The position numbers and the translations under genes are program-made. Below are positions 5,050 to 54,927 of a DNA stretch of 64,000 bases, piece after piece. The number at the start of each line of letters is the position of its first letter. The stretch's first letter is position 1. The DNA comes from Escherichia coli (GTDB lineage Bacteria; Pseudomonadota; Gammaproteobacteria; Enterobacterales; Enterobacteriaceae): assembly GCF_003991155.1 (NCBI RefSeq), contig NZ_CP031293.1. One strand, written 5' to 3'. Under the pieces are notes generated by a model. The model was not told the origin of the DNA. It did not search any database and worked only from the letters and a program-made list of their open reading frames with translations.

Positions 5050-6264
5050 TAAAACCTTATGAAGGGGCGTCGTTTAGTATACTGATGGCTATTATGAAGT
5101 GTGAGTGGTTGTCTAAAGATAAGCTAGCCCTCACACGCTGTATCAAGCGACCTCTTGTTAGCTTACTCCAGCTAGCAAGAGTAAACTTTCCCCACTCATA
5201 GGGCTATGTTTGAAGTCCGAGTCGGAAATTGGGGGGCAGAAGACATAAAAGGTCTCCTTAAGAAGTCTTCTTGTCTGTACAAAAACTCTTATTTTGACAA
5301 AGAGCATTGTAGTTATTAACAGGCTGATTAATAAATTTAAAAATAAGTCGTCAGGAACACCAGATTAGCTACCCAAATTCTCATGCCGTGGAAGCGGAAG
5401 AAAAATACTCCCCTGAATATCTTCATATCGGATATACATAATAAGCTTGAGGTTGTATATTTGAAGAATTGAGTAGCCAGAGCCTTGTTGACATAAAGCG
5501 ACACGAACAACATGTTACTTAAAATATCACGAGTATATATTCAGACTTGTTTATGTTGCGACATGGATTCTACAGGCAGCTGGCTGAAACAGTGAGTCAG
5601 AAAAATTTACAGGAGCGCCATAGTCATTAATGGATATCCGTAATATGCTGATGCAAAAGGGTAAGGAGTTTGCCGGTAATCTGCGGTGTTAGACGACAAT
5701 TACAAAACGACCTTAGGCGTCAATTACCGCTGAAAAAAGTGACAGATCACTTTCTATAAAATGCTGCCGTATGACCGACAGATTTATTCCGCTTTATAGC
5801 CATGACTGTTCGGTGCTCACTTCGCTGCGCTCCGCCTCAGTCCTGCCTAAAAAGCGTTGCAGGTTAGTTTGTATCGGCCTAATGAAAGGCTGTTTTAGCG
5901 AAGCGTAAATGTGACATCTTATCTGGTCTAATCTCTTTGCGATAATTGACGCAAAAGCATGGGCTGTAATTGTCACGCAATACTGCGGCAAGTCTCATGA
6001 TGATGCCTCTGACAGGGATCTCCGTAGCCATTAACTGGTCGATTGGTAAGCTAAAACAAAAAAATTGAATTTGTCAAGACAGCCATAATGACTACCATTT
6101 TCGTCTCTGCTTTTCCATCCTGAAATTAATGGCTATCATATTCGCAATAGACAACATCATCTTACTTGCACTCAACTATAACTAATGCTGAGTGCAAGAA
6201 ACGGGGATTATATCCCCTATCAAGGACCTGTTGAAATATTAGTCTGGAATTTCGAGGCTGTAAT

Positions 6265-6789
6265 TTAAATTGCTCCATTTGCCTTAGCATCAAGAATGAA
6301 TTTTTCATACTCGCGTTCTGCAACAACAACAGGGACTGTTTTGCGATTATATAATTGCATTAATAACAATGTACGATGCCTTCCATCAGAAACACCAAAT
6401 TCACTGTTAGATGCCTCTGGATATTCAACATACCCTTTTGATATATATTTTTTGATTTTATGCCATCTACGCGGATCAATGCAGAATGCTCCATCTCCTA
6501 ATTTTTTAAGAAAGGCTAGCCCATCGACATATACAATCCTGGTAGGACAATGCCGATAGCGTACAGGAAGGGTAAAGATAATATTTTCAAAAACAGGGAA
6601 AGTAAGACCTGAATCATCTTTAGGTATTGACTCAAAGGAATCAAAAGGATATTTTGTCATGTAATCATTTAGTTTTTCAATATCCATATTGGAAAACCAC
6701 GATACTTCCGGGAGAAATTTTTTATCTCTTTCTCTAATTTCTTTGATCGAATCTCCAAATATATCATCTAACCTCCACCCCTCTTTCAT
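6265..6789 (-). CDS. hypothetical protein with C-terminal ParB/Srx-like DGRHR motif
   Basis: 174 aa; GVSDGRHRTLLLMQL near the C-terminus resembles the DGxHR signature of ParB/sulfiredoxin-fold nuclease domains; AT-rich gene downstream of an Rhs immunity gene. Confidence 0.45.
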   Translation of the reverse strand: MKEGWRLDDIFGDSIKEIRERDKKFLPEVSWFSNMDIEKLNDYMTKYPFDSFESIPKDDSGLTFPVFENIIFTLPVRYRHCPTRIVYVDGLAFLKKLGDGAFCIDPRRWHKIKKYISKGYVEYPEASNSEFGVSDGRHRTLLLMQLYNRKTVPVVVAEREYEKFILDAKANGAI

Positions 6790-6833
6790 TTATGCTCCTA
6801 AAATAATGTGATATTAAAAATTCTGTTAATAAG

Positions 6834-7349
6834 TCAAATTTTATGAATACTAATAAGGGGTTTGCACCACTCAACCGAGAGAATATCTTCCATTTTATAA
6901 AAAACGCCATAATCACTTTGATTATAATGCTCAATTTTATCAGCCATTTGTAATCTAATTTTGTCTTTGTAAATTCTACTTCGGATCAAACTGGCGAAAT
7001 TATATATATCAACCCTCAGATTGATAATATTATTTCTATCTGGGCGTCTTTCATGTAACATATCACGAAAAGAAACAAGTAACGTAATTAATTTTTTAGC
7101 CTCATTATTTTTAATATATCCTTTTTTAAAGATGCATAATATTAATTTTGAAATTAAGCTGATTTTTATTTGTAAATTATAGATAGCATTATCGTTTGTC
7201 AGGCAGGTTATGACTTCAATTACTTCACGTGAGCGAATATAATTGTCCAGTGCTTCCCATTCATCCATTCCTCGATGCATTGAAAGTTCCAATTGCCTTA
7301 AAAAAGCATATAACCCCAATAAGAAGTCGCTATTGCAGTATATTTTCAT
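6834..7349 (-). CDS. putative Rhs immunity protein (cognate to orphan Rhs-CT at 7346-8737)
   Basis: 171 aa, AT-rich, immediately downstream of the Rhs-CT gene with a 4-bp ATGA overlap; family not recognised. Confidence 0.5.
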   Translation of the reverse strand: MKIYCNSDFLLGLYAFLRQLELSMHRGMDEWEALDNYIRSREVIEVITCLTNDNAIYNLQIKISLISKLILCIFKKGYIKNNEAKKLITLLVSFRDMLHERRPDRNNIINLRVDIYNFASLIRSRIYKDKIRLQMADKIEHYNQSDYGVFYKMEDILSVEWCKPLISIHKI

Positions 7350-43279: not shown

Positions 43280-43753
43280 TTAGTGATGTTTTGGCTGCAC
43301 CGCAACATACATTTCGATATCCCAGTACCCATCTTCCGCGCCATTGTTCAAGTAAACCTCGAAGCAGGGCTTTGGTAACATTTCATAGGCACTGTCCTGC
43401 AAGAGGCTATTAAAGAACTGATACCAGGGTTTAGCAAAATCATCACCGACTACACGAGCCACCGCCACCGCATACTGACCACCTGAAATTTCTGTCAGAA
43501 TGACGCCCTCACTGTTTTCGGGGAGCGTAAAGTTATTCGGTACCGTCACGACGGTGTCGCAGCGTAATTTTTCGGCGGGTGTTTCATCTGGATTGTCGTA
43601 ATAGACAGCAACCCACTCCTTCGGCACAATATTTTTGCTATCTATCCACATCATCAACTGCTCAAAACCTTTCTTTACCGTCTGCTCCCACGGGCCAACA
43701 AGATGGAAACCTGCAACGGTACGTTTATCTTCCTGCTTAATCTCGTAGTTCAT
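43280..43753 (-). CDS. sbmC: DNA gyrase inhibitor SbmC (GyrI)
   Basis: 157 aa, [26 protein letters not shown]... Confidence 0.85.
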
Positions 43754-43871
43754 GACGCCTCCATTAACACTGTTTTTATATACAGTATAGTTGCAATATT
43801 AAAACCACAAGGAATGAGTGTTGATTATGCGAGCAGACTCGCACTCCTGCCAGTCTGCTGCAAAAGAAAGG

Positions 43872-45044
43872 TCAGGCCTTATGGTGGAAATAATCACTCA
43901 GCCGGGAAAACATGCTGCCTTCCCCGACAGATTCCAGGGTAACCAGCGGCCAGTGCGCCACCTGTTTATCACGGTCGTAAAGTTCAATTTCCCCTACCCG
44001 CTGATGGGCGCTAATTGGCGCGGTGAGTTCTTTACCATCAAGGGTATATTTGGCTTTGATATGTGGAATTTCGGCTTTCGGTAGCACCATCCAGAACTCT
44101 TGTTCCGTTCCCAGGGCGATATTTTCTTTATCGCCATACCAGATGCGTTCCGTACCAACCTTTTTCCCACGGTGCAAAATTTGCACCGTAGTAAAGTTTT
44201 GTTGCCCCCAACGCAGTAATTTTCTTGCCTCTTCCTCACGACCTTTTGCGCTGTCAGCCCCCATTACCACTGCAATGAGACGACGCTGCCCATCTACAGC
44301 CGAAGCAATGAGATTAAACCCGGCACCAGAAGTATGACCCGTTTTCAGGCCGTCAACATTCATGGTTTTATCCCACAATAACCCGTTACGGTTTTGCTGG
44401 GTGATACCGTTCCAGGTGAGGCTTTTCTCACTGTACATATGATAAAACTCGGGCTCGCCGTGGATGATAGCGCGAGAAAGCACAGCTAAATCATAAGCCG
44501 AGCTATGCTGGCCAGGTGCATCCAGACCATGCACTGTTTCAAAATGCGTATCCTTGAGATGCAGCTTCTCGGCATAGTTGTTCATCATTTCAACAAACTG
44601 CCGTTGCCCACCGGCAATATAGTCAGCCAGAGCAACACAAGCGTCATTTCCGGAATCCACAATTAAACCACGGCTTAAATCACGTACCGATACGCGATCG
44701 CCCTCTTTCAGAAACATCAGTGAAGAACCGACAAACACCGGATTATCTTTCGCCCACGCATCGCGCCCCACGGTGACAATATCGTCTGGCGTAATGCGAT
44801 GACTATCGATAGCACGATCCACGACATAGCCCGTCATCAGCTTTGTCAGGCTGGCGGGATTGCGCTGTTGATGCTCATTACCCGCGGTGAGAATCTGACC
44901 GGTGGTGTAATCCATCAATACCCAGGACCCGGCATGAATCTCTGGAGGCTGAGGTGAAAAAGGAATGTTTTCCGCCGCAAAACCAGACGATAAATTAAAA
45001 ACGAACAAAGAAGCAGCAATAATAAGACGGCGTTTCAACAGCAA
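43872..45044 (-). CDS. dacD: D-alanyl-D-alanine carboxypeptidase DacD (PBP6b)
   Basis: 390 aa with signal peptide; SxxK (ASLTKLMT), SGN and KTG motifs. Confidence 0.85.
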   Translation of the reverse strand: MLLKRRLIIAASLFVFNLSSGFAAENIPFSPQPPEIHAGSWVLMDYTTGQILTAGNEHQQRNPASLTKLMTGYVVDRAIDSHRITPDDIVTVGRDAWAKDNPVFVGSSLMFLKEGDRVSVRDLSRGLIVDSGNDACVALADYIAGGQRQFVEMMNNYAEKLHLKDTHFETVHGLDAPGQHSSAYDLAVLSRAIIHGEPEFYHMYSEKSLTWNGITQQNRNGLLWDKTMNVDGLKTGHTSGAGFNLIASAVDGQRRLIAVVMGADSAKGREEEARKLLRWGQQNFTTVQILHRGKKVGTERIWYGDKENIALGTEQEFWMVLPKAEIPHIKAKYTLDGKELTAPISAHQRVGEIELYDRDKQVAHWPLVTLESVGEGSMFSRLSDYFHHKA

Positions 45045-45246
45045 ACCCTCAGGTGTTTCAAATAGCTGTTCTTTTTACGGAAATACTTATGAACTGGCTG
45101 GAATAAAGTGCAAGAAAATGTGACTACTATCTCATTTTTATCTGACATGATCTGTTGCCACTCGCTGCCAAATTGTCGCGCTAAAGCTGATTAGCACGGT
45201 GATATTTGATACTCTGGCAGACAGCAGAAACAACGGATTTAACCTA

Positions 45247-45300
45247 ATGATGAATGACGGTAAGCAACAATCTACCTTTTTGTTTCACGATTACGCGCAA
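45247..45300 (+). pseudogene. sbcB: 5' remnant of sbcB (exonuclease I) at the prophage junction
   Basis: ATGATGAATGACGGTAAGCAACAATCTACCTTTTTGTTTCACGATTAC encodes MMNDGKQQSTFLFHDY, matching the SbcB N-terminus from memory, then diverges into ...AQHP-stop. Confidence 0.55.
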
Positions 45301-45775
45301 CACCCCTGAGAACCGCCATAAACAAGGGTTTCATGATTTGTGATTTTAGTTTGGTACGCAATTTGGTACACAACACAATTTTCACTTCAGCGGGTAGTCA
45401 TCAAACTCACCATAACGCACTTCGTTGATGATGTACGTGATCACCAAAAATATCGCATCCGGACTAGTTCCATCTTCATGCGCAGGCATATGTTCATGCC
45501 TACCTGTCTGCAAACCAGTAATAAGCCATTACAGGGTGATAGTGATGCATCAACTACGTTAAGCGCAGAGAAATGATGCAGTGGTGGGCGGATTGGCTTG
45601 ATGAAAAGGTGGAGTGATCCACCTTAACCACTATCGAAGAGCACAAAGCCTTGCAATCCAGTGCAAAGCTTTGTGTGTCTCAGTTTTGTTTCATAGGTAA
45701 TCATGCGTTCACTACGATGCAAGAATCCATACCAAATTTTATTTAAAACTCACAAATACACTAGATAAAAACAAT

Positions 45776-45794
45776 CCCGCAGTTTTCATGCGGG
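45776..45794 (-). terminator. intrinsic terminator downstream of the tailspike gene
   Basis: CCCGC-N9-GCGGG hairpin followed on the minus strand by a T-rich run. Confidence 0.5.
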
Positions 45795-45814
45795 ATATAC
45801 TGCATTTATTGCAA

Positions 45815-48292
45815 CTACATTGCCATTAATATAAACATAGCCAATTCGTCATAACGAATTCCGTAGCGTCCACCTGCTTTTTTTACAAGAATCATATTTC
45901 CTGTTTTATATTGAGAATAAATTTTCTCACCTGTATCAGGATCTGTGCTCTCTTCAGTTATCACCTCTTCATCCCATACGTCTGGCCATTCATCGTAACA
46001 CCAAAAAGCATATTGCTCAGGATTTAAACCATGCTTTCTAAGAATATCTCCTACGGTTTGAGCGCCAACTCCAAAATGATACCTTGATAACTCCAATCCT
46101 TTAAAATTAATCGACTCATTAAACCTGAACTTGCATATAATTCCCTTTATTTCCAGCGCAGCATCACGCTCTGCCTGAGTAATGTCATATATTGTTTTAA
46201 GTGTTTCATCTGATGTGCTTATAGTCCCGGATGCAGAATAAATCTGAGCCCATCTAAATGATGGTGCACCAAGAGATTTGCTGTTATCAATAATTGGTGA
46301 AAAATTACCTTTAATGGCAATATTTCCAGAGTCGCCGAATATATTAATAACTGTAGAGTCATCACCATGGTTTTTTACGCTTAAGTTTCTTGATAAAATA
46401 TTTATATCTTTGTTATACCCACTAACATTAATCCATCTTTTACCATCAATGTGATACCCGTAAATATTTCCGTTTGATTGTTCGTCAGGTGACTCTCTAA
46501 GAACAATAGCATCTACTCCAGACGACCATTGTATTTTTGTATCTGTAGGCCTCCAGTTCTTTATAATGAACGAACCATCAGTAAACTCCGTTTTTATTTG
46601 TCTATTGTCTACAAATGCGTCTCTTGGTTTAAACTCACTTGTGTTAACGCTGCTCTGAAGATCAGAAGCAAAAAATCTAAGATTTCCTGTATAACCCTGA
46701 GTCTCGGTCAGGTTATACGCAATCATAATTCCATTTTCAAACTCAGATGATGTTATTTTAACATCACGGCAATCACCAAAAATGCAATTTCCTTTATCAA
46801 ATGTTGTTTGAGCTTTGAATTTATCAAACCTTAAATTACGAACAGGGAAACCATCAACCTCTAATGCAAAGGATGCATGAAGGCCAAAGTATTCTGATGG
46901 CTTACCTGATGTATGATCAAGAGTAGTGGCTACTGTATTCTCAAAAACAGTCCCGCTAAAATTATTACCAATTGACGGAAACCTGATTACACTTATTGTA
47001 CCTTGTATTTCAGGAGAAATACCAGATAGTGTGATGTTAGTTCCATCAAATGATGCATCTGAATACGTATATACTGATTCACTGCCAGCAATTTTAAACT
47101 GTTTAACTGAAGTTATTCTCATCGACTTTTTATGTTTAAATGTCACTGAGCTTTCAGTATTACTTACAAGATCAATCTGAGGGCTATTCCTTATCGCGAT
47201 TCCTGACTGGACATAAACGTTATTAAAGTGCGTTTTTTCAGGATTTCCCTTCATTGAAAGGCTCCCGTCATTTTCTGTCAGTAGTAGTCCTTTTACCCTC
47301 CAATAGCCGACAATCTGTACGTTATCAATAACTGAATCACAGCTATCGTATACATGCAACCCTATATCCCAGTTATCACCCAATGAATAAGAATCAGGGT
47401 TATTGTATCCTTCAATACCATTTTTACTTACCATTATTCTCAGATTGCGTAACTGTGATGCCCTGTTGATACTAACAGCTACGCTCATGGCTTTTGGTGT
47501 AGCAGGAGTAACACCTACAGAATCTTCATTCGTAAACTCAGTGAACTTACAAGATATCCCTTCAACAATTTTAACCGGTCTTTCATTAGAGATGTTAAAA
47601 AAATATTTGTTTTTTTCTCCATCACCAGTAAATACAAGATGGGTTCCTTTACTCCAACTTTTTAATAATCTTTCAGGCGCTGGTCTATATGTATCCCAAT
47701 AATCAATGCCAGATCCAACCAGTGAACACCCCTCAGGAATGTTAATATTCTTCTTGATGATGCATATTCCTTCCGGAATTGTTATAACCGACCTTCCAGA
47801 GTTTAAAGCTTTAATAAAAGCATCTGAATCATCTGTTTCCCCATCTATTTTTGCTCCCCACCCTCTAACATCTCCACAATCTCTCCATCGTGCCATCTGC
47901 AACTCAGGATATTTTTTAGCGCCATCTGGATCTTCTAATTGCTGCCGTAGCTGATCGGGGTCATACTTCAGCACATTAGGAAAATAGAACTGCTGCGCAC
48001 CATATGCATCATAAACAGCCATAGAATGGCCTTGCACAGTTACAAACTTGGCTATTTGCCCGTTATATACCGGGTAACCAGCAGCGTTAATGATGATTGG
48101 TTGCGAAACAGGAACGTGAGAGCCATCTTCGTTCTCCACATAAACCTGAATCTGGTTTTCAGGATTTACAGGGTCAGTGTCAATTTTACCGATATAAATT
48201 TTGCCATTGGCAACCGCTTTAAAAGAACGTGCCATAGTGAAGAGTTGAGAAGGCATACTCACTACAACATTGGCATTTATCGAATCTGTCAT
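45815..48292 (-). CDS. tailspike protein (P22 gp9-like head-binding N-terminus, divergent receptor-binding body, C-terminal chaperone-like domain)
   Basis: First ~115 aa resemble the P22 tailspike head-binding domain ([37 protein letters not shown]...[13 protein letters not shown]...VLKYDPDQ); remainder unrelated. Confidence 0.8.
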
Positions 48293-48391: not shown

Positions 48392-49321
48392 TCAGTAGTT
48401 ATGTACTGAAGGAGGTAATTCTTTATTCTTAAGTCTCATCCATGCGGAAAGATTCGTTGGTCCGTCTGGCTCATTGATATCAACATCTCGTGTGTGATTG
48501 ATTAAAACGTCTCTCGCCATTCCGATAACATACGAGAACTCATGACCATAGTCGTAGCATCTGCCGGAATAGTTCGATTGAATTTGTTTTAATGCCGGAT
48601 ACAGTTCGCGGAATAACGCCTGTGAGCGGTTGGCATAATCCCATAACCATACAAGGCTGTTTGCTTCTTTTGCAGAAAGCTCGTTGGTTTTCTTCTCTTG
48701 TTTGCCAATGAACTCACCTTCAAGCGGAACGCGAGCAGCAAGTGACAGTGCTTCGGTAAACTGCTCATCACTGATTTCTTTGTACGAACATCCAAAATGG
48801 GATTTCAGTGACGACCACATGGTGATCATCGCCTTCGCCTGTTTTTCTTTTGGCAGAGACTGACCGCGACTCATGACGAGTTGTTTAATGGCTTCCTGCT
48901 GTTCAGTGGTGATTTTACCCGGCAACGCCTTTTTAGCTTTGCGTGGGTTAACTACATGGCCTTTAGTCCAGTACTCGTAGAGCACATCGTCACACTCTTC
49001 CTGATACTGGATTACCTTGTCGCGGATTTCAGGGCGGACTTTGTTTGGACTGATGGTTTGCAGCCAGCCAGCAAGTTTGCGAAGTGCCAAACAAATAATC
49101 TCACGGCACTGTTCATCACCAGGAAGCTGCATTGTGATTTTCACAATGGAGGTTTTAAACCGTTGCTTTATTTTCGTAAACTGTGAAGCCCAATCCATAC
49201 CCATACCTTCAACGATAGGTTTCATTGGGGTGTACGGCTCACCGTTGTGATTGACGACATAAAGCTCTGCGCCGTGGAATGGCACGTTGATAGTAGATAC
49301 TGCTGTTGCTATACTTTTCAT
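48392..49321 (-). CDS. ant: phage antirepressor Ant
   Basis: 309 aa downstream of arc in the immI arrangement. Confidence 0.7.
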
Positions 49322-49387
49322 GTCAGTTTTTCCTCAAAATTTACTGGCGATTTAAGCCCGAGCTACTCGCAATAGCTTGGGCTTTAC

Positions 49388-49534
49388 TCATTCTGGACAA
49401 ACAATTCCATCCTTAGCTACTGACTCCTTTAGTCTCCTCAATACCTCATTACTGAACGACCGATCATCCTTTTTCGCGGACTGCTCCAAAGCCTTTTCCA
49501 GCCATTCTGGCATCCTTAATGTCTTAACTTTCAT
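49388..49534 (-). CDS. arc: Arc-like ribbon-helix-helix repressor
   Basis: MKVKTLRMPEWLEKALEQSAKKDDRSFSNEVLRRLKESV... Arc/MetJ-type fold, upstream of ant. Confidence 0.7.
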   Translation of the reverse strand: MKVKTLRMPEWLEKALEQSAKKDDRSFSNEVLRRLKESVAKDGIVCPE

Positions 49535-49646
49535 TTTTGCTCCTTTGCTCCTTTGTATGTGGTACGCATACATAGTATTTAGGTACGCATTGATAGTCAA
49601 TAGATACCTACATATCCTGTGGTAAATAATTATTCAGGATGCGCCG

Positions 49647-49898
49647 ATGTCTGATCGTAAGTACAAAAACCCTCAAGTGAATCTGAGGCTTCCTGTAGAG
49701 ATAAAGGAACGTCTTATTGAGCTGGCTGAGGCTAATTCTCGTTCATTAAATGCTGAGATGGTAGCAGCACTTGAGGCATGGACTGAAAAAAATAAACATA
49801 TTCAAGCACTAGATATTGCAACTATAGCATCGCGGTTGATAGAGCTTGAGCATGAGGTTGAGAAGTTAAAATGTATGCATGGCAACGGTGAAAAATGA
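49647..49898 (+). CDS. mnt: Mnt-like maintenance repressor (ribbon-helix-helix)
   Basis: 83 aa; NPQVNLRLPVEIKERLIELAEANSRSLNAEMVAAL; divergent from arc-ant. Confidence 0.75.
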   Translation: MSDRKYKNPQVNLRLPVEIKERLIELAEANSRSLNAEMVAALEAWTEKNKHIQALDIATIASRLIELEHEVEKLKCMHGNGEK

Positions 49899-50209
49899 AA
49901 CGCATCGCTATTTTGTTAATATTGTTCTTCTCTACAATAGTTTGCGCCAAACAAAAATCAGATAATGGCGATCTTAAAGGCCTGCAAGAACTCATGATAA
50001 CTTCGAAATTTGCTGGCATGTGCGGCACAATCAAACAAATGGCAACATTTCAAGAATCAACAAAAATGCCTGGCGGAGATGAGTTCTTACAGCGTTTTCT
50101 GACCACAGAGCAAGCAAGACTTGGAATGAATCCACAGGAGTTTCTTGAAGCATGCCAGAAGTCAATTTCAGCTTATACCAATTATTACAATCTAACTTCT
50201 GATAAATAA
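49895..50209 (+). CDS. small exported protein (signal peptide), mnt-coupled prophage moron
   Basis: ATG overlaps the mnt stop (ATGA at 49895-49898); MKRIAILLILFFSTIVCA signal peptide; 104 aa. Confidence 0.55.
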   Translation: MKRIAILLILFFSTIVCAKQKSDNGDLKGLQELMITSKFAGMCGTIKQMATFQESTKMPGGDEFLQRFLTTEQARLGMNPQEFLEACQKSISAYTNYYNLTSDK

Positions 50210-50234
50210 TAGAAAGGATTTTATAAATAACTTT

Positions 50235-50720
50235 ATGAAAAAATCACTATTAATTATCCCGCTTCTGCTGGCTGGATGCGCAAAAGTAAGTGACTACCAA
50301 GCAAGTTGCGAACAACGCTATCCAAAGCTTAGTGATATGGCTAATTGCCTTGATGCCAGCGTGAAGAACGACTCACGCATGGCATCAGCACCAACACCTA
50401 AGCTGTATGTCCTTGCTGCGAAGATGCTCGGGCAAGGTGTCGATGAAGGCAAGATAAGTGACGCACAGGCAAGACTTGAGCTTCAGAATCTTTATGTTCA
50501 ATTACAAAGCCAAGAACAAGCCCAACAAATAGCGCAAAGCCAAGCATTCCAGCAGGCTTTATTGAATTATCAGGCTGTAAACACAATGCAAGCGATCGAG
50601 CAAAAAGCGCGCCAGCCTGTTATAACTCAACCTTACCCAACACGCGTTGACACATATACAAACTGCAATTCAGGATTTGGAAACACCGTCACATGCAACA
50701 GTAGCAGCAACATTAGATAA
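50235..50720 (+). CDS. lipoprotein, prophage moron at the P22 sieA position
   Basis: MKKSLLIIPLLLAGC lipobox; Gln-rich central region; 161 aa. Confidence 0.6.
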   Translation: MKKSLLIIPLLLAGCAKVSDYQASCEQRYPKLSDMANCLDASVKNDSRMASAPTPKLYVLAAKMLGQGVDEGKISDAQARLELQNLYVQLQSQEQAQQIAQSQAFQQALLNYQAVNTMQAIEQKARQPVITQPYPTRVDTYTNCNSGFGNTVTCNSSSNIR

Positions 50721-50722
50721 AG

Positions 50723-52885
50723 CTATTCATATTCATTCATACCGCTTAACGAGGCGACAATACCAGCTCTCGACAAGCGATTGAATTCATCGCTACCAAT
50801 AGCATCGCGTATTGCTTTTACGGCGGCTTTATTTGCCATAAATCTGCGTTCCGCCGCCGCTAATGCTTCTTTACTTCCGCCAGCTCTTACTGCTTTCGTG
50901 GCTTCCTGAACTGCTTTCTCTATCGCATATCGGCCGCTACGCGTGGTGGCAATTTTAGATACAGCACCTTTTAACCCGGCGCCAACTAAAGCACCTGCGG
51001 CAGCGCCTGCAATGCCCCCTCCTGCTCCACCAACAATGGCACCTGATGTTGAGTTGGCAATTGCATTTAACACTGTTGATGTGACGTTGGATAAACCGGC
51101 ATCCAGATCGCGTAGTACATTGGCAGTTCTCCCTGTTCTTTCAATATACTGCTGAGGCTTCACTGCTGCTCTTGCAAGAGTGCCATATGCATCAGCAATT
51201 CTTCCGAGTTCTGAGGAATATCTGCTAATGGCTTTTACATTTTGTGGGGTAAGTATCCCTGCGATATGGTTAATTCCTGCTGCATCAGCTTTGCCACCAC
51301 GTACACCATGCGAGATAGCATCTTGCAACATTGATGATATAGCAGGAACACGCTCTGATTCTGGCAGCGCGCGGATCATAGAATGGAACCCAGCAGGACC
51401 ATTAAGACCTTTAGCTGACGATGATTGAAGGGATTTTACTCCATTCGTAATCAGTGCATCTGTTGCCAAATCACGCCCGAAAACAGACTCTGCACTCTCT
51501 TGTGCTGATAACCTCGCTTTAGACAGATCATTAGCTTTCTGCCAGTCATCAAGAAATCCGCCGTTTTCCGCCATTGTGCGCATATCATCAGTAATTGCCC
51601 GGCGTATTTCCCCTGCTCTCCTTGCCGCATTTGCCTCTCCGCTACGCTTATATTTTTGCTCCGCATCAGCAAATTTCGCTCTCCATGCTTTCATGCCATC
51701 AAATGTTACCCCACCTTGATTGTTTGCCTGAACAAACTGTTTCATTTCAGGAGTAAGCGGTATGCCAGCAGATCGCTCTGCCTGAATAACGGCATTACCA
51801 TTTAGCATTCTTGCTTTTTGATTTGGCATTGTTGACCGCACGTCATCCCATGCCGCGCGCTCGGCATCCTTCATCTGATCAAGATTTTGAAGAATCCTTT
51901 GTTTTATAGCCGCACTTTTTTCTGATGCCGTTCCAGATGCGGCCCCAAATTCATCAAGGTTTCGACTTAACTTTGATGATATTTCGTTAAATGCTGCCTG
52001 ATGGGCGTCCTGAACAATTCCTGGTGTTGATGCCAATGCGCCTTCGGCTTGTGCAATTCCACGACTTCCAGATCGCATTCCTGGTGTTAATGCGTTTATA
52101 TCAATTCCAGCAGACTCAGCCGCTTTTGCTACATCTTCGGACACATTAGCGGCCTGACTGGCAATTGACTGACGCCCAGCACCTGACTTTGCCATCCTGG
52201 AAACATCATTAGCAGAATTCAGTGCTGCACCACCAAGAGCCTGTGAAACCCTTGGCGCAATAACGCGCCCGACACCTGAAAGAACGCCTTGAGCACCAAT
52301 ATTGATACCACCGTTAATGGCAGCATTTTGTGCAAAGTCGCCCTCCTGATTTGCAGCATCAGCAAGAGAACCTGCAATCATGTTTCCTGCGGAACCGATA
52401 TCTCCAGCGAGCTTTGCTGGCGCTCCAGCAGCTTTTGCCGCTGTGCCAATTGGCAGGAGATACCCACCAATTGTTTCACCGGCTTGCGCATAAGGGTCTG
52501 TCGGTCGATCGACTGGACGATAGACATCATCCAAAACCTTTGGGCCACCAAGCCCCTGGCTGATTGCATTAATCAGACTTGCGCCACCCTGCAATACGTC
52601 AAATGGTATGTTTACCAGACCACGACCAGCCTGTTCTGCAATTTGCCCTGCACTTTGACCACCTGTGAGCCAATCACCAGCTTGTTGCATCAATGATGGT
52701 TCTTCTTTCTGCTGCTGTGGCGGAGGGTATGCTGCATAAAACTGATCTCTTGCTTCAGCCCATTTGTCACCAGCCTTAGGGGCAACAACCTCATCAAAAT
52801 ATTGCGCTTGAGCCTGTGCTTTCTGTTCTTCAGTTAACGCCTGATACTGTGGAGAAGCGATAACATCTTTCCATGCTTTAGCCAT
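50723..52885 (-). CDS. ejection (injection) protein, P22 gp16-like
   Basis: 720 aa, Gly/Ala-rich; gene order after gp20. Confidence 0.65.
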
Positions 52886-54225
52886 TAATCACCCCATAAA
52901 GACGAGAAACCGGAATTATTGCTGTCGCTTCCTGATTTTCGCTCACTAACATATGTGTCATAACCTGATGAACTATATCCCATTGATTCAGCCTCCCTTG
53001 CTGCAACCTTTTGAAATACAGAATATTGCGATCGGATTTCAGATAACTGTTTTCTGACGACCTCTTCAGGCTGTGTTATATCGAGTTTCGCGATCAGGTT
53101 TTCCAGTTTTTGGCCTTCAGCATTGGAGAGGCTACCCATACCTCGCATAGTCTGCACGTTCTGGACAAACGCACCCGACTTTAATTCTTCTATCGCATTA
53201 CGGTTTGCAAGCCCTTCAGCACTTGTGAAGCCATCTATATTTCTTCCTTCGAAGCGACCGATACCTTCAAGCTCCTTCTTACCAAGCAAAGAATCAATTT
53301 TCTCTATCCCTCGCTCACCAGTAATCAACGCATTGTTGTAATTATTGTTGCCATCAAGCCATCTCTTAGCCTGAGACATTCTGGCTGACGTTGCAGCTTT
53401 ACCGGTTAGAGGATCAATTCCCGTCGCTGCTATCTGTGAGTTAAGAGACAAAACATCCATATCCTGAAGTTGTCCTGCTCTTTCAAGGGCCGCCTGTGAC
53501 TGCTTAAACACATACTTGTCGTGATTCAGTCTTGCCATTTGAGCCTTATAGGAAAGATCCTGCCCCCTAATAGCCCTCGCATTCGTCATGTCATTATTGC
53601 GAATGGTTTCGTTAATTCTTTGCTGTTCCTGCTGGCGACCAACCATCTTGTCCTGAACATTGAAGTAATCAATCGGACCAAGAGCAGCCATTCCGAGGTG
53701 ATCAACAAACTCACCAAATCCTGAAGGATTCTGCTGATACATCTGAGCAACGTTGTTAGGGTCAACGCCGACGCGCGCCAGTTCCTTGGCGTTGTTTTGC
53801 AGCCATGATTGCATTGCTTCTGGAGACGAGGCCGCAAGGCGTGCGCCAGCTGCTAAGGTGCCGATAGAATTACGCTGCTCTTCATCAATGAATCCCATGC
53901 CTTTACGAACGGATTCAATCTGGTCTGGATATTGAGTAGCCAACTGACGCAAAGCACCGCGATCACCAGACGCATAAGCATTAGCGTATGCCTGCTGAAA
54001 TTCTTTCTGCCGCTGAGCCTGCTTTTCCTGCTGAAACACCCCCGCAATACCTGAAAGTCCTTGCAAAGCAGTCAGCCCAACATTGTTAGCGCCTGAACGC
54101 TCAATATCATTGTTCTGCCTGATAAGCTGAAGCGTATTGCCGATGTCATTTACGCTCGGAGCGTTTGAGTTGACGCCGCCGATACCAGCCAACAATCCGC
54201 CATTTGATCCTTGCCAAGTAGCCAT
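52885..54225 (-). CDS. ejection protein, P22 gp20-like
   Basis: 446 aa in gp20 position. Confidence 0.65.
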
Positions 54226-54234
54226 GATTACCCC

Positions 54235-54927
54235 TTAAAACAACGAACCAAGCAATCCGATACCAGCACCAATGCCAGCGCCCCAAGGTGTTGATGTTCC
54301 CAAAAGGCTGGCAAGACCTGCACCGGCAATCGCACCGGACGTTCCGCCGCTAATTGCTGTCTGAAGACTTGATGGTTTATTGGCATTAGCAGCGGCAAGT
54401 GCTGCGCTTTGCTGTGCAATGCTGCTCATGTTGTTGGCGTACGTCTGCCCGGCGTTTGCCTGACCTTGCAGAGCACCAAGCCCAACGTTTGCCAGATTGT
54501 TGTAATTGCTCATCTGGTTTGATAACCAAGACTGACCGAGAGTCGGCGCGATCGTAGCCAGTTGATTGCTTGTGGCTGTCGAACCAAGTCCGCCAGTCGC
54601 CTCCGCAGCAGCAAGACTCTGGTAACGAGCCTGACCTGCAAGGTCTTTATACTGCTGAGAATTGTAATACTGATTAAGTGCCTTCCCCTGACCTTCTAAA
54701 CTGGAAAGATTCTGAAGCTGGTTAACATACTGCTCCGCAAGCGGCGTGAACGGAGCAAGGTTTTTCATGATCGTCTGCCACTGCTGATTTTGCAGGTCTG
54801 CGGCATACTTCTGGGCTTCTGCTGCATACTTTGCGCTTTTATCAGAACTGCCACCTTTCCCGCCTTTTTCAGGGCAATAAGGTTCCTCGCCGCGCAGTTT
54901 TCTGCCCAGCTTAAATGCATATAACAT
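54235..54927 (-). CDS. ejection protein, P22 gp7-like
   Basis: 230 aa in gp7 position. Confidence 0.65.
   Translation of the reverse strand: MLYAFKLGRKLRGEEPYCPEKGGKGGSSDKSAKYAAEAQKYAADLQNQQWQTIMKNLAPFTPLAEQYVNQLQNLSSLEGQGKALNQYYNSQQYKDLAGQARYQSLAAAEATGGLGSTATSNQLATIAPTLGQSWLSNQMSNYNNLANVGLGALQGQANAGQTYANNMSSIAQQSAALAAANANKPSSLQTAISGGTSGAIAGAGLASLLGTSTPWGAGIGAGIGLLGSLF

What the first reader, a model, noticed from the sequence alone, without database searches (positions are those of the whole stretch)
49647..50720. Two exported-protein genes co-transcribed with the lysogenic repressor mnt at the sieA position
A 104-aa signal-peptide protein starts on the mnt stop codon (ATGA), so it should be expressed in lysogens. 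It is followed by a 161-aa lipoprotein (LAGC lipobox, Gln-rich region). This position in P22 holds superinfection-exclusion genes. Neither protein has a family I recognise, so they are candidates for a novel exclusion or lysogenic-conversion module.
Basis: partly seen in the sequence, partly recalled or inferred. Interest (0 to 1): 0.6.

Follow-up and report, generated by a model that had tools for sequence, protein, structure and literature searches.

The report
Two exported prophage genes replacing sieA
A P22-like prophage of E. coli carries two real but uncharacterised genes for cell-envelope proteins where phage P22 keeps its superinfection-exclusion gene sieA, making them testable candidates for new anti-phage factors, but no function is shown.

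Summary
Both are under purifying selection (dN/dS 0.02-0.17). Both fall in function-unknown PHROGs, with no Pfam, NCBIfam, PADLOC or PDB match.

They are not one module. In 5,426 complete E. coli genomes the lipoprotein is in 185, ORF104 in 60, and both in 17.

The lipoprotein is always the last gene before gene 16. In sibling prophages the DNA is 98% identical to P22 through mnt, orf59a, the terminator and the annotated PsieA promoter, up to the sieA ribosome-binding site. There the lipoprotein gene replaces sieA. Its 98.8%-identical copy in prophage Gally is transcribed in lysogens while late genes are silent.

ORF104 belongs to a large phage-borne periplasmic family (289 clusters). Its ATGA coupling to mnt persists down to 42% identity.

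Best reading: independent prophage-expressed envelope cargo genes, most likely blocking entry of superinfecting phages. That function is inferred from position and regulation only.

The parts
49572..49630 (.). Divergent overlapping promoter-like sites: Pant/Parc-like on the - strand (49600-49572, TTGACT-17-TACTAT) and Pmnt-like on the + strand (49590-49618 and 49601-49630)
   Evidence: Consensus scan. The arrangement matches the annotated overlapping Pant/Pmnt of P22. These are consensus matches only.
49647..49898 (+). mnt homologue: 83-aa Arc/Mnt ribbon-helix-helix repressor
   Evidence: phrog_795, 9e-24; 47% identity to P22 Mnt over residues 8-39.
49895..50209 (+). ORF104: Sec-exported periplasmic protein whose ATG overlaps the mnt stop (ATGA). 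Residues 1-18 are the predicted signal peptide (49895-49948). The mature part of about 86 aa is three helices with invariant Cys43 and Cys87 and the motif FQESTKMPGGDEF.
   Evidence: AF2 pLDDT 76; 289 clusters; dN/dS 0.15-0.17. The mnt coupling is conserved in L008-L011 and L018/L019.
50210..50234 (+). 25-nt spacer that replaces the usual leader of the lipoprotein cassette (aaaactaaggagagttaaYYat); a weak AAGGA lies 15 nt before the ATG
50235..50720 (+). ORF161: outer-membrane-type lipoprotein. Lipobox LAGC is at 50268-50279 and the +2 residue is Ala. A helical domain carries Cys25/Cys38. A long Gln-rich helix spans residues about 76-125 (Gln-rich core 50484-50573). A C-terminal hairpin carries Cys144/Cys154.
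   Evidence: phrog_6067, 2.6e-110; AF2 pLDDT 65; residues 20-100 score about 80-88; dN/dS 0.02-0.07; lipobox in 33/33.
50723..52885 (-). Gene-16-type ejection ('DNA transfer') protein, convergent with ORF161. It is the invariable neighbour of ORF161 and a possible target.
   Evidence: (phrog_770, 1.5e-230).
50933..50950 (+). First, weak terminator-like hairpin on the + strand after ORF161. A transcript from the mnt side would run at least 200 nt antisense into gene 16.
49388..49534 (-). arc homologue (48 aa), part of the immI context
48392..49321 (-). ant antirepressor, part of the immI context
   Evidence: phrog_245, 3.5e-97.
45815..48292 (-). Tailspike (825 aa), the other boundary of the variable cargo region
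   Evidence: phrog_1171, 2e-203.

Best explanation
These are two independent accessory ('moron') genes of a P22-like prophage. Both encode cell-envelope proteins and both lie in the hypervariable cargo slot between mnt and ejection gene 16.

ORF161 is made as a lipoprotein. It is most likely sorted to the inner face of the outer membrane and projects a small disulfide-bonded helical domain and a long Gln-rich helix into the periplasm. It is a discrete cassette consisting of a leader of about 25 nt plus the ORF. In sibling prophages this cassette sits exactly where sieA sits in P22, behind the PsieA promoter. In this window it has instead been joined to mnt-ORF104, so it is probably transcribed from Pmnt.

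ORF104 is a small Sec-exported, helical, disulfide-bonded periplasmic protein that is translationally coupled to mnt.

The most likely function of both is superinfection exclusion at the envelope, by blocking a step of DNA delivery by incoming P22-like phages. Candidate steps are outer-membrane or periplasmic assembly of the gp7/gp20/gp16 conduit, a secondary receptor, and cell-wall penetration. They would act from the outer membrane and periplasm rather than from the inner membrane as SieA does.

Shown here: gene reality, export signals, cassette structure, swap with sieA, and prophage-state transcription of the ORF161 orthologue.

Inferred: outer-membrane localisation, disulfides, dependence on Pmnt in this window, and the exclusion function itself.
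For: Position and swap:
- In all 80 IMG/VR loci and in 6 reference loci, ORF161 lies on the anti-late strand between the tailspike gene and gene 16. Where the gene-16 end could be located, ORF161 abuts it.
- In the orf59a class (18 of 80 loci) the DNA is 98% identical to P22 across mnt, orf59a, the mnt terminator and the annotated PsieA, up to the sieA Shine-Dalgarno sequence. From there ORF161 replaces sieA.
- No P22-type SieA was found in any of these loci, and no ORF of at least 100 aa with 3 or more hydrophobic segments lies between tailspike and ORF161 in the 78 loci that hold both anchors.

Expression:
- The 98.8%-identical Gally gene GALLYPH_13 has 70 normalised reads against a prophage median of 15.6 in LB.
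- Its log2 fpkm rises from about 6 to 10.3 in macrophages while gene 16 stays at 3-4 (PMC9928086 tables S1/S4).

Export:
- The lipobox is present in 33/33 homologues with no Asp at +2, and N-terminal hydrophobic cores are present in 25/27 ORF104 relatives.
- Cys pairs are invariant.

Recurrent envelope cargo at the slot next to gene 16:
- SieA in P22, an inner-membrane protein (PMC10883804).
- ORF161 in the loci above.
- An ORF104 relative in Kapi1.
- A further lipoprotein (GALLYPH_14 type) elsewhere in the same locus, between mnt and ORF161.

ORF104:
- The ATGA coupling to mnt is kept at 71% and at 42% protein identity.
- The family is phage-borne in Mu-like and other temperate phages.

Other:
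- GC content is lower than in the late genes.
Against: - There is no phenotype for either protein. No similarity was found to any known exclusion or defence protein in PHROGs, PADLOC, Pfam, NCBIfam or PDB.
- ORF161 stays 98-100% identical while the adjacent gene 16 varies from about 30% to 99% identity, so it does not co-vary with that putative target. SieA shows the same indifference.
- The LF82 authors scored Gally as having no moron, because GALLYPH_13 was 4.5-fold above background and their cut-off was 5-fold. Deleting Gally did not change survival in macrophages.
- mnt itself was at background in LB in that lysogen, so Pmnt-driven expression of ORF104 in vitro may be low.
- Structure models are only moderate (pLDDT 76 and 65), and fold searches gave only generic helical matches.
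Confidence: 0.42

Rival explanations
1. The genes are lysogenic-conversion or host-fitness factors rather than phage exclusion factors. ORF161 and/or ORF104 would protect or remodel the envelope of the lysogen, for example as a periplasmic or outer-membrane inhibitor of host lysozyme (as LprI, MliC and Ivy are) or as a Bor-like resistance lipoprotein. This would help the bacterium in an animal host.
For: - The ORF161 orthologue in LF82 is induced about 6- to 16-fold inside macrophages compared with LB.
- Foldseek against AFDB50 returns, after family members, one protein annotated 'Lysozyme inhibitor LprI N-terminal domain' (E 3.5e-7, 26% identity) and a DUF2799 lipoprotein.
- The genes are common in pathogenic lineages, including O104:H4.
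Against: - No Pfam LprI/DUF1311 match was found in the query or in any of 33 homologues.
- hhalign of the family against E. coli YecT, which I took from memory (not checked) to be a DUF1311 protein, gives probability 0.1%.
- Deletion of the whole Gally prophage did not alter macrophage survival.
- The strict linkage to gene 16 and to P22-like phages across at least 12 enterobacterial genera fits a phage-directed role better.
Confidence: 0.25
2. The active agent is the transcript rather than the proteins. RNA started at Pmnt or PsieA would read through ORF161 into the 3' end of gene 16 and act as an antisense RNA. This would silence the ejection or tailspike mRNAs of a closely related incoming phage, or of the resident prophage, as STnc6030 of prophage BTP1 does.
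For: - BTP1 carries a highly expressed antisense RNA of more than 700 nt at the same junction between the injection gene and the tailspike gene. It confers immunity to BTP1 but not to P22 (PMC7067206).
- In the window ORF161 ends 2 nt from the gene-16 stop. No terminator-like site occurs on the + strand before a weak one at 50933-50950.
Against: - Both ORFs are under strong purifying selection at the protein level and keep export signals and Cys pairs over deep divergence, so the proteins are functional.
- The same ORF161 sequence sits next to unrelated gene-16 sequences, so any antisense effect would be incidental and type-specific.
- This could be an additional effect, not the main one.
Confidence: 0.08
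3. The pair is a two-component spanin or other lysis function, with an inner-membrane-anchored helical protein plus an outer-membrane lipoprotein, or the genes encode virion or injection proteins.
For: There is a superficial resemblance: a protein with an N-terminal hydrophobic segment is followed by an outer-membrane lipoprotein with a coiled-coil-like helix, next to the ejection genes.
Against: - The two genes are distributed independently, with 17 genomes carrying both against 185 and 60 carrying each. Spanin partners are obligatory pairs.
- They lie on the strand opposite to the late operon, in the mnt operon or behind PsieA.
- The ORF161 orthologue is transcribed when late genes are silent.
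- ORF104 has short cleavable-type signals ending in AxA.
- From general knowledge, P22-like phages carry their own Rz/Rz1 in the lysis cassette.
Confidence: 0.03

Closest known systems
P22 SieA (superinfection exclusion A; types A-C, Leavitt et al. 2024, PMC10883804)
   Same: It occupies the same genomic slot: last gene before gene 16, on the lysogenic strand, in P22-like prophages of Enterobacterales. In sibling prophages ORF161 sits behind the same annotated PsieA promoter and leader, up to the ribosome-binding site. The sizes are similar (161 aa against 162-164 aa). The two are mutually exclusive in the loci examined. Both are found next to very different gene-16 types.
   Different: There is no sequence similarity. 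SieA is an integral inner-membrane protein with 3-4 transmembrane helices, no signal sequence and a cytoplasmic FxRYPxEAxxFNK motif. ORF161 is a lipoprotein with no transmembrane helix, predicted to face the periplasm from the outer membrane. Exclusion by ORF161 has not been tested.
T4 Spackle (Sp, gene 61.3; PMC7677548)
   Same: ORF104 resembles it in general design. Spackle is a precursor of about 100 aa with a cleavable signal, and its mature part is a compact all-helical periplasmic protein with one disulfide (mature 75 aa, Cys29-Cys81). It excludes superinfecting phage by inhibiting the tail lysozyme in the periplasm.
Receptor-blocking exclusion lipoproteins Llp (T5) and Cor (phi80/N15/T1-like)
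   Same: These are small phage-encoded outer-membrane lipoproteins that protect the cell from related phages by acting on an outer-membrane component. They are encoded next to the genes for host recognition or DNA delivery.
   Different: There is no PHROG or sequence relationship. ORF161 is larger and helical with a long Gln-rich helix. P22-like phages bind O-antigen, and any protein receptor is secondary. The function is untested.
Phage morons (lambda bor/lom; HK97 gp15)
   Same: These are discrete cassettes inserted among late genes, transcribed from the prophage independently of the late operon, with lower GC than their surroundings and variable presence among otherwise similar phages.
   Different: In the window the two cassettes have been fused into the mnt operon rather than carrying their own promoter and terminator.
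BTP1 STnc6030 antisense RNA (PMC7067206)
   Same: It is a prophage-expressed transcript at the same junction between the injection gene and the tailspike gene, and it gives immunity to superinfection.
   Different: STnc6030 is non-coding, with no ORF longer than 60 aa. Here two conserved protein-coding genes fill the slot.

Membership tests
SieA (P22 superinfection exclusion A) | Integral inner-membrane protein with 3-4 predicted transmembrane helices and no signal sequence | tested here: not met
   ORF161 and ORF104 each have only one N-terminal hydrophobic segment, a lipobox signal and a Sec signal respectively. The AF2 models show soluble helical domains. SieA features are taken from PMC10883804.
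SieA (P22 superinfection exclusion A) | Sequence homology, including the conserved FxRYPxEAxxFNK motif | tested here: not met
   The motif is absent from both translations. tblastn with P22 SieA finds nothing in the window segment or in 86 related loci. PHROG assignments differ.
SieA (P22 superinfection exclusion A) | Located between the homologues of genes 16 and 9 in a P22-like prophage, on the lysogenic strand | tested here: met
   There is an exact swap behind PsieA in the orf59a class.
SieA (P22 superinfection exclusion A) | Blocks DNA injection by P22-like phages | not testable with these tools
   This needs plating, potassium-efflux and DNA-entry assays.
Bacterial lipoproteins (signal peptidase II substrates, Lol-sorted to the outer membrane) | Basic n-region, hydrophobic core, lipobox [LVI][ASTVI][GAS]C, and no Asp at +2 | tested here: met
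   ORF161 begins MKKSLLIIPLLLAGC-A. The lipobox is present in 33 of 33 homologues, with +2 being A, V or T. Acylation and localisation themselves are not testable here.
Prophage moron / accessory cassette | Discrete unit with variable presence among related phages, flanked by unrelated sequence, transcribed in the lysogen independently of the late genes | tested here: met
   The cassette boundaries lie at the leader and at the stop codon. Seven upstream architectures were seen. ORF104 relatives are inserted in Mu-like and other phages. Transcription of the Gally orthologue occurs with late genes silent. GC is 0.38-0.45 against about 0.48-0.51 in the late genes.
LprI / DUF1311 lysozyme-inhibitor lipoproteins (Pfam PF07007) | Match to the family profile | tested here: not met
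   No Pfam hit was found for ORF161 or for any of 33 homologues. hhalign against E. coli YecT, which I took from memory (not checked) to be a DUF1311 protein, gives probability 0.1%.
LprI / DUF1311 lysozyme-inhibitor lipoproteins (Pfam PF07007) | Shared fold | tested here: inconclusive
T4 Spackle | Sequence or fold homology to Spackle | tested here: not met
Two-component spanin (Rz/Rz1) | Obligate pair of an inner-membrane and an outer-membrane component, encoded together in the lysis cassette | tested here: not met
   The two genes are distributed independently. They lie in the immI region on the lysogenic strand.
Known anti-phage defence systems (PADLOC-DB) | Match to any model | tested here: not met
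   No family matched at E up to 1 for Mnt, ORF104 or ORF161.

The most novel reading that the evidence does not exclude
ORF161 and ORF104 each found a new class of superinfection-exclusion protein. ORF161 would be an outer-membrane-anchored periplasmic lipoprotein interchangeable with the inner-membrane SieA, stopping the P22-type ejection-protein conduit or cell-wall penetration from the other side of the periplasm. ORF104 would be the prototype of a widespread family (at least 289 clusters) of Spackle-like periplasmic exclusion proteins, carried by temperate phages of many Proteobacteria and here wired directly to the maintenance repressor Mnt.
Probability: 0.3. Interest if true: 0.7.

Novelty: new variant of a known kind. 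Interest (0 to 1): 0.5.

Why it matters
How short-tailed phages get DNA across the periplasm, and how SieA stops them, is still unresolved. Leavitt et al. could not explain how SieA copes with such divergent ejection proteins.

A natural, precise replacement of sieA by an unrelated outer-membrane lipoprotein under the same promoter offers a second, independent probe of that conduit. Escape mutants against it would map which ejection protein or host component is exposed at the outer-membrane and periplasmic side.

The lipoprotein is present in about 3.4% of complete E. coli genomes, including the O104:H4 outbreak lineage and AIEC LF82, where it is induced in macrophages. It may therefore also matter for phage-therapy host range or for host interaction.

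The ORF104 family is a large protein family with no Pfam match, found in prophages or phage-like gene neighbourhoods wherever enough flanking sequence was available. Assigning it a function would annotate hundreds of phage gene clusters.

If neither protein affects phage entry, the locus is simply another pair of unknown morons.

Tried and rejected
- Pfam, NCBIfam, PADLOC and PDB sequence searches with single sequences and with family profiles gave nothing significant. The NCBIfam GspK hit (18.9 bits against a cut-off of 130) and a 'GspK' name in one database entry are artefacts of the Gln-rich helix.
- The LprI lead from Foldseek was not confirmed by Pfam on 33 members or by hhalign against YecT.
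- The spanin idea was rejected on distribution, strand and signal type.
- The structural or injection-protein idea was rejected on strand, export signals and expression while late genes are silent.
- The idea that gene 16 of this phage carries a recognisable cell-wall hydrolase domain, which the exported proteins might inhibit, has weak support only. There is a PHROG 'transglycosylase' hit but no Pfam or PDB support.
- The first search for related loci attempt failed for lack of capacity and was repeated successfully.
- Literature searches found no paper that characterises either protein.
- Two context look-ups returned contigs too short to be informative.
Full report
**What is there**

The window from about 45.8 kb to its end is the late and immI region of a P22-like (Lederbergvirus-type) prophage. 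Host genes dacD and sbmC lie just upstream.

The local order is:
- tailspike, 45815-48292 (-)
- ant, 48392-49321 (-)
- arc, 49388-49534 (-)
- divergent promoter-like sites, 49572-49630
- mnt, 49647-49898 (+)
- ORF104, 49895-50209 (+)
- ORF161, 50235-50720 (+)
- convergent ejection genes 16 (50723-52885), 20 (52885-54225) and 7 (54235-54927)

- The ORF104 ATG overlaps the mnt TGA (ATGA).
- ORF161 starts MKKSLLIIPLLLAGC.
- A Gln-rich stretch follows at about residues 84-113.

The P22 reference record shows the equivalent arrangement: gene 16, then sieA with its own annotated promoter PsieA, a terminator, orf59a, and mnt.

**Are they genes?**

Yes. Three lines of evidence support this.
- ORF161 differs from sibling alleles almost only at synonymous sites, with dN/dS of 0.02-0.07. 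ORF104 compared with variants of 42-73% protein identity gives 0.15-0.17.
- ORF161 has 94-108 homologous 90%-identity clusters, all in Enterobacterales. The genera include Escherichia, Salmonella, Citrobacter, Serratia, Klebsiella, Cronobacter, Pantoea, Pectobacterium, Yersinia, Xenorhabdus, Morganella, Providencia, Proteus and Tatumella. The lipobox Cys, Cys25, Cys38 and Cys154 are invariant, and a further C-terminal Cys (Cys144 in the window protein) is present in every homologue.
- ORF104 looked rare in the word-indexed search, with 18 hits. An exhaustive profile search found 289 clusters at 50% identity, 206 of them at E no higher than 1e-10. K38, G41, C43, F64, E72, R75 and C87 are invariant across 27 divergent members.

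**Export**

- All 33 aligned ORF161 homologues have a lipobox, and none has Asp after the lipid Cys. By the Lol sorting rule this predicts outer-membrane anchoring.
- ORF104 and 25 of 27 relatives have a short N-terminal hydrophobic core ending in an AxA-type site. The Cys in the window's signal peptide is not conserved, so ORF104 is a soluble periplasmic protein and not a lipoprotein.
- The AF2 model of ORF104 gives a signal helix plus three helices (pLDDT 76).
- The AF2 model of ORF161 gives a helical domain (residues about 18-71), a helix of about 50 residues, a disordered Pro-rich linker and a low-confidence C-terminal hairpin. Overall pLDDT is 65, and about 80-88 over residues 20-100.
- The spacing of the conserved Cys residues fits intramolecular disulfides. 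This is inferred and was not measured on the model.

**Known families**

- Both proteins fall in PHROGs of unknown function: phrog_19844 and phrog_6067.
- Nothing significant was found in Pfam, NCBIfam, PADLOC or PDB sequences, either with single sequences or with family alignments.
- Foldseek against AFDB50 returned family members, other unnamed lipoproteins at 25-30% identity, one 'LprI N-terminal domain' protein and one DUF2799 protein.
- The LprI lead was not confirmed by Pfam or by hhalign against E. coli YecT.

**The two genes are not one module**

- Among 5,426 complete E. coli genomes, ORF161 is in 185, ORF104 in 60 (53 full length), and the full mnt-ORF104-ORF161 stretch in 17. The 17 include the O104:H4 outbreak lineage.
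- Among 80 IMG/VR loci carrying ORF161 at 98-100% identity, the upstream neighbour varies:

| Upstream architecture | Loci |
|---|---|
| An mnt gene directly upstream | 32 |
| mnt plus an opposite-strand second lipoprotein (GALLYPH_14 type) | 16 |
| mnt plus P22 orf59a | 16 |
| orf59a without mnt | 2 |
| mnt-ORF104 adjacent, as in the window | 9 |
| mnt-ORF104 at a distance | 1 |
| None of these | 4 |

- In Yersinia ruckeri and Morganella prophages, ORF161 is the only gene between the tailspike gene and gene 16.
- Conversely, ORF104 relatives follow mnt with other cargo downstream. In L008-L011 that cargo is a SocA/Panacea-domain gene pair and an exported 122-aa ORF.

**ORF161 is a sieA replacement**

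- Wherever the 3' end of gene 16 could be aligned, ORF161 abuts it: a gap of 9 nt in 12 loci and 18 nt in one.
- The adjacent gene 16 ranges from about 30% to 99% identity to the window's copy.
- In the orf59a class, locus L045 is 98% identical to P22 over 693 nt. This runs from the end of mnt through orf59a, the mnt terminator hairpin and the annotated PsieA promoter, and breaks inside the AAGGAG of the sieA ribosome-binding site. After that point ORF161 follows instead of sieA.
- Most classes share the leader aaaactaaggagagttaaYYat-ATG. Downstream homology ends at the stop codon. The mobile unit is therefore the leader plus the ORF.
- No P22-type SieA was found in any of these loci, and no ORF of at least 100 aa with 3 or more hydrophobic segments lies between tailspike and ORF161 in the 78 loci that hold both anchors.
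- Leavitt et al. report that only 22 of 66 P22-like phages carry sieA. [quoted passage not shown] They do not describe what fills the slot in the others.

**Expression**

- In the window the usual leader is missing. ORF161 follows ORF104 after a 25-nt spacer.
- No promoter-like or terminator-like site was found between Pmnt and the ORF161 stop.
- Transcription from Pmnt through all three genes is therefore the simplest reading. This is inferred.
- Published RNA-seq of E. coli LF82 covers the 98.8%-identical copy in prophage Gally, where the gene is not behind mnt. It has 70 normalised reads against a prophage median of 15.6 in LB.
- Its log2(fpkm+5) is about 6.1 in LB, about 8 in the B1/B6 samples (bacteria sampled at 1 and 6 h outside macrophages, as I read the labels), 10.3 in macrophages at 1 h and 8.6 at 6 h. 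Gene 16 stays at 3.6-4.1 (PMC9928086 tables S1/S4).
- At 4.5-fold above background it just missed the authors' 5-fold threshold, which is why they called Gally moron-free.
- mnt itself was at background in LB and rose 40-fold in macrophages.

**ORF104 and mnt**

- The 4-nt ATGA overlap of mnt and an ORF104-family gene recurs in the 71%-identical class (L008-L011) and in a 42%-identical class whose Mnt is of a different sequence type (L018, L019).
- All 26 full-length E. coli hits listed overlap an Arc-family gene.
- The family also occurs in other settings:
  - As an opposite-strand insertion between head genes of Mu-like prophages.
  - In gene neighbourhoods with phage-type recombination or DNA-modification genes (ERF and YqaJ in L107; a methyltransferase and a resolvase in L007), which look like early regions of other temperate phages.
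  - In the slot adjacent to gene 16 in phage Kapi1.
- It is therefore a widely mobile phage accessory gene for a periplasmic protein.

**Mechanism**

The shown facts are export signals, prophage-state transcription, cassette exchange with sieA, strict linkage to the ejection genes, and recurrent envelope proteins in this locus. Together they point to an envelope-level function directed at incoming phages. I put this at about 0.4.

- An outer-membrane lipoprotein with a long periplasmic helix could interfere with outer-membrane or periplasmic assembly of the gp7/gp20/gp16 conduit. Alternatively it could lock a secondary receptor from the periplasmic side, as Llp does.
- ORF104 has the general design of T4 Spackle: a precursor of about 100 aa and a helical periplasmic mature protein with one disulfide, which in T4 inhibits the incoming tail lysozyme (PMC7677548). 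There is no homology.
- The main rival is a host-fitness or lysozyme-inhibitor role, at about 0.25. Macrophage induction and the single LprI-annotated fold hit support it. Failed profile tests and the unchanged macrophage survival of the Gally deletion weaken it.
- An antisense-RNA effect like BTP1 STnc6030 is possible as a side effect, because the transcript probably runs into gene 16. It cannot explain the protein-level conservation.
- Spanin or virion roles are rejected.

**Verdict**

These are uncharacterised but catalogued protein families in a known kind of locus. The new elements are:
- the exact sieA-to-lipoprotein swap behind PsieA;
- the conserved translational coupling of mnt with ORF104;
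- the size of the ORF104 family.

Function remains to be shown by the simple plating and injection assays listed under next steps.

Noticed in passing
window 49322-49388 (+): A sar-like antisense RNA or terminator lies at the arc/ant junction. The Rfam RF00262 match is below the gathering score (29.3 against 43 bits, E 0.014). It sits exactly where P22 sar lies and folds well (-24.8 kcal/mol, z = -5.9, a 12-bp hairpin).
   Followed up: partly
L001 3447-3866 (-) (phage Gally GALLYPH_14); also 16 of 80 IMG/VR loci: A second, unrelated 139-aa lipoprotein (LSGC lipobox) lies on the opposite strand between mnt and the ORF161 homologue. In LF82 it is transcribed in the lysogen and is strongly induced in macrophages (log2FC 3.84).
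   Followed up: partly
L008-L011, about 5330-7190: In E. coli prophages with the 71%-identical mnt-ORF104 pair, the space before gene 16 holds a SocA/Panacea-domain protein (PanA-type antitoxin domain), a partner of 140-147 aa, and a 122-129-aa ORF with a signal-like N-terminus next to gene 16. The locus is a general cargo and defence hotspot.
   Followed up: no
L034 and L039, immediately upstream of the ORF161 homologue: An 81-aa ORF with two hydrophobic segments (MEQQQGSPLSLIIMVIFFVFIFFIPALK...) precedes the lipoprotein gene in one class of prophages.
   Followed up: no
window 50723-52885 (-): The gene-16 homologue matches PHROG 'transglycosylase' (phrog_29864, 3e-26, residues 64-246) and 'lytic tail fiber protein'. 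It has no Pfam match at all and no relevant PDB sequence match. A cell-wall-degrading domain in this ejection protein is unconfirmed.
   Followed up: partly
window 43280-45814: The prophage end abuts host genes sbmC (43280-43753) and dacD (43872-45044). The 770-bp gap before the tailspike gene contains no tRNA gene. The attachment site was not identified.
   Followed up: partly
proteins P0163, P0281, P0294: Some members of the ORF104 family are tandem duplications of the domain (174-208 aa), each repeat keeping the conserved G-x-C ... F-x-x-R-F ... C pattern.
   Followed up: no
L102/L103 5001-5423: A 31%-identical relative of ORF161 (140 aa, LAGC lipobox) is inserted on the opposite strand between large tail or internal-protein genes of a different, non-P22-like phage. 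One neighbour has a Peptidase_S74 tail-fibre domain.
   Followed up: no
window 45815-48292 and 49647-50209: The tailspike gene (GC 0.375), mnt (0.401) and ORF104 (0.378) are markedly AT-richer than the ejection and head genes (0.47-0.51). This fits recent horizontal exchange of these modules.
   Followed up: no
L101 (phage CUS-3) 3600-5521: CUS-3 has a 93.5%-identical mnt region, followed by a second mnt copy and three other hypothetical genes (including hkcB) before gene 16. This is yet another filling of the same slot.
   Followed up: no
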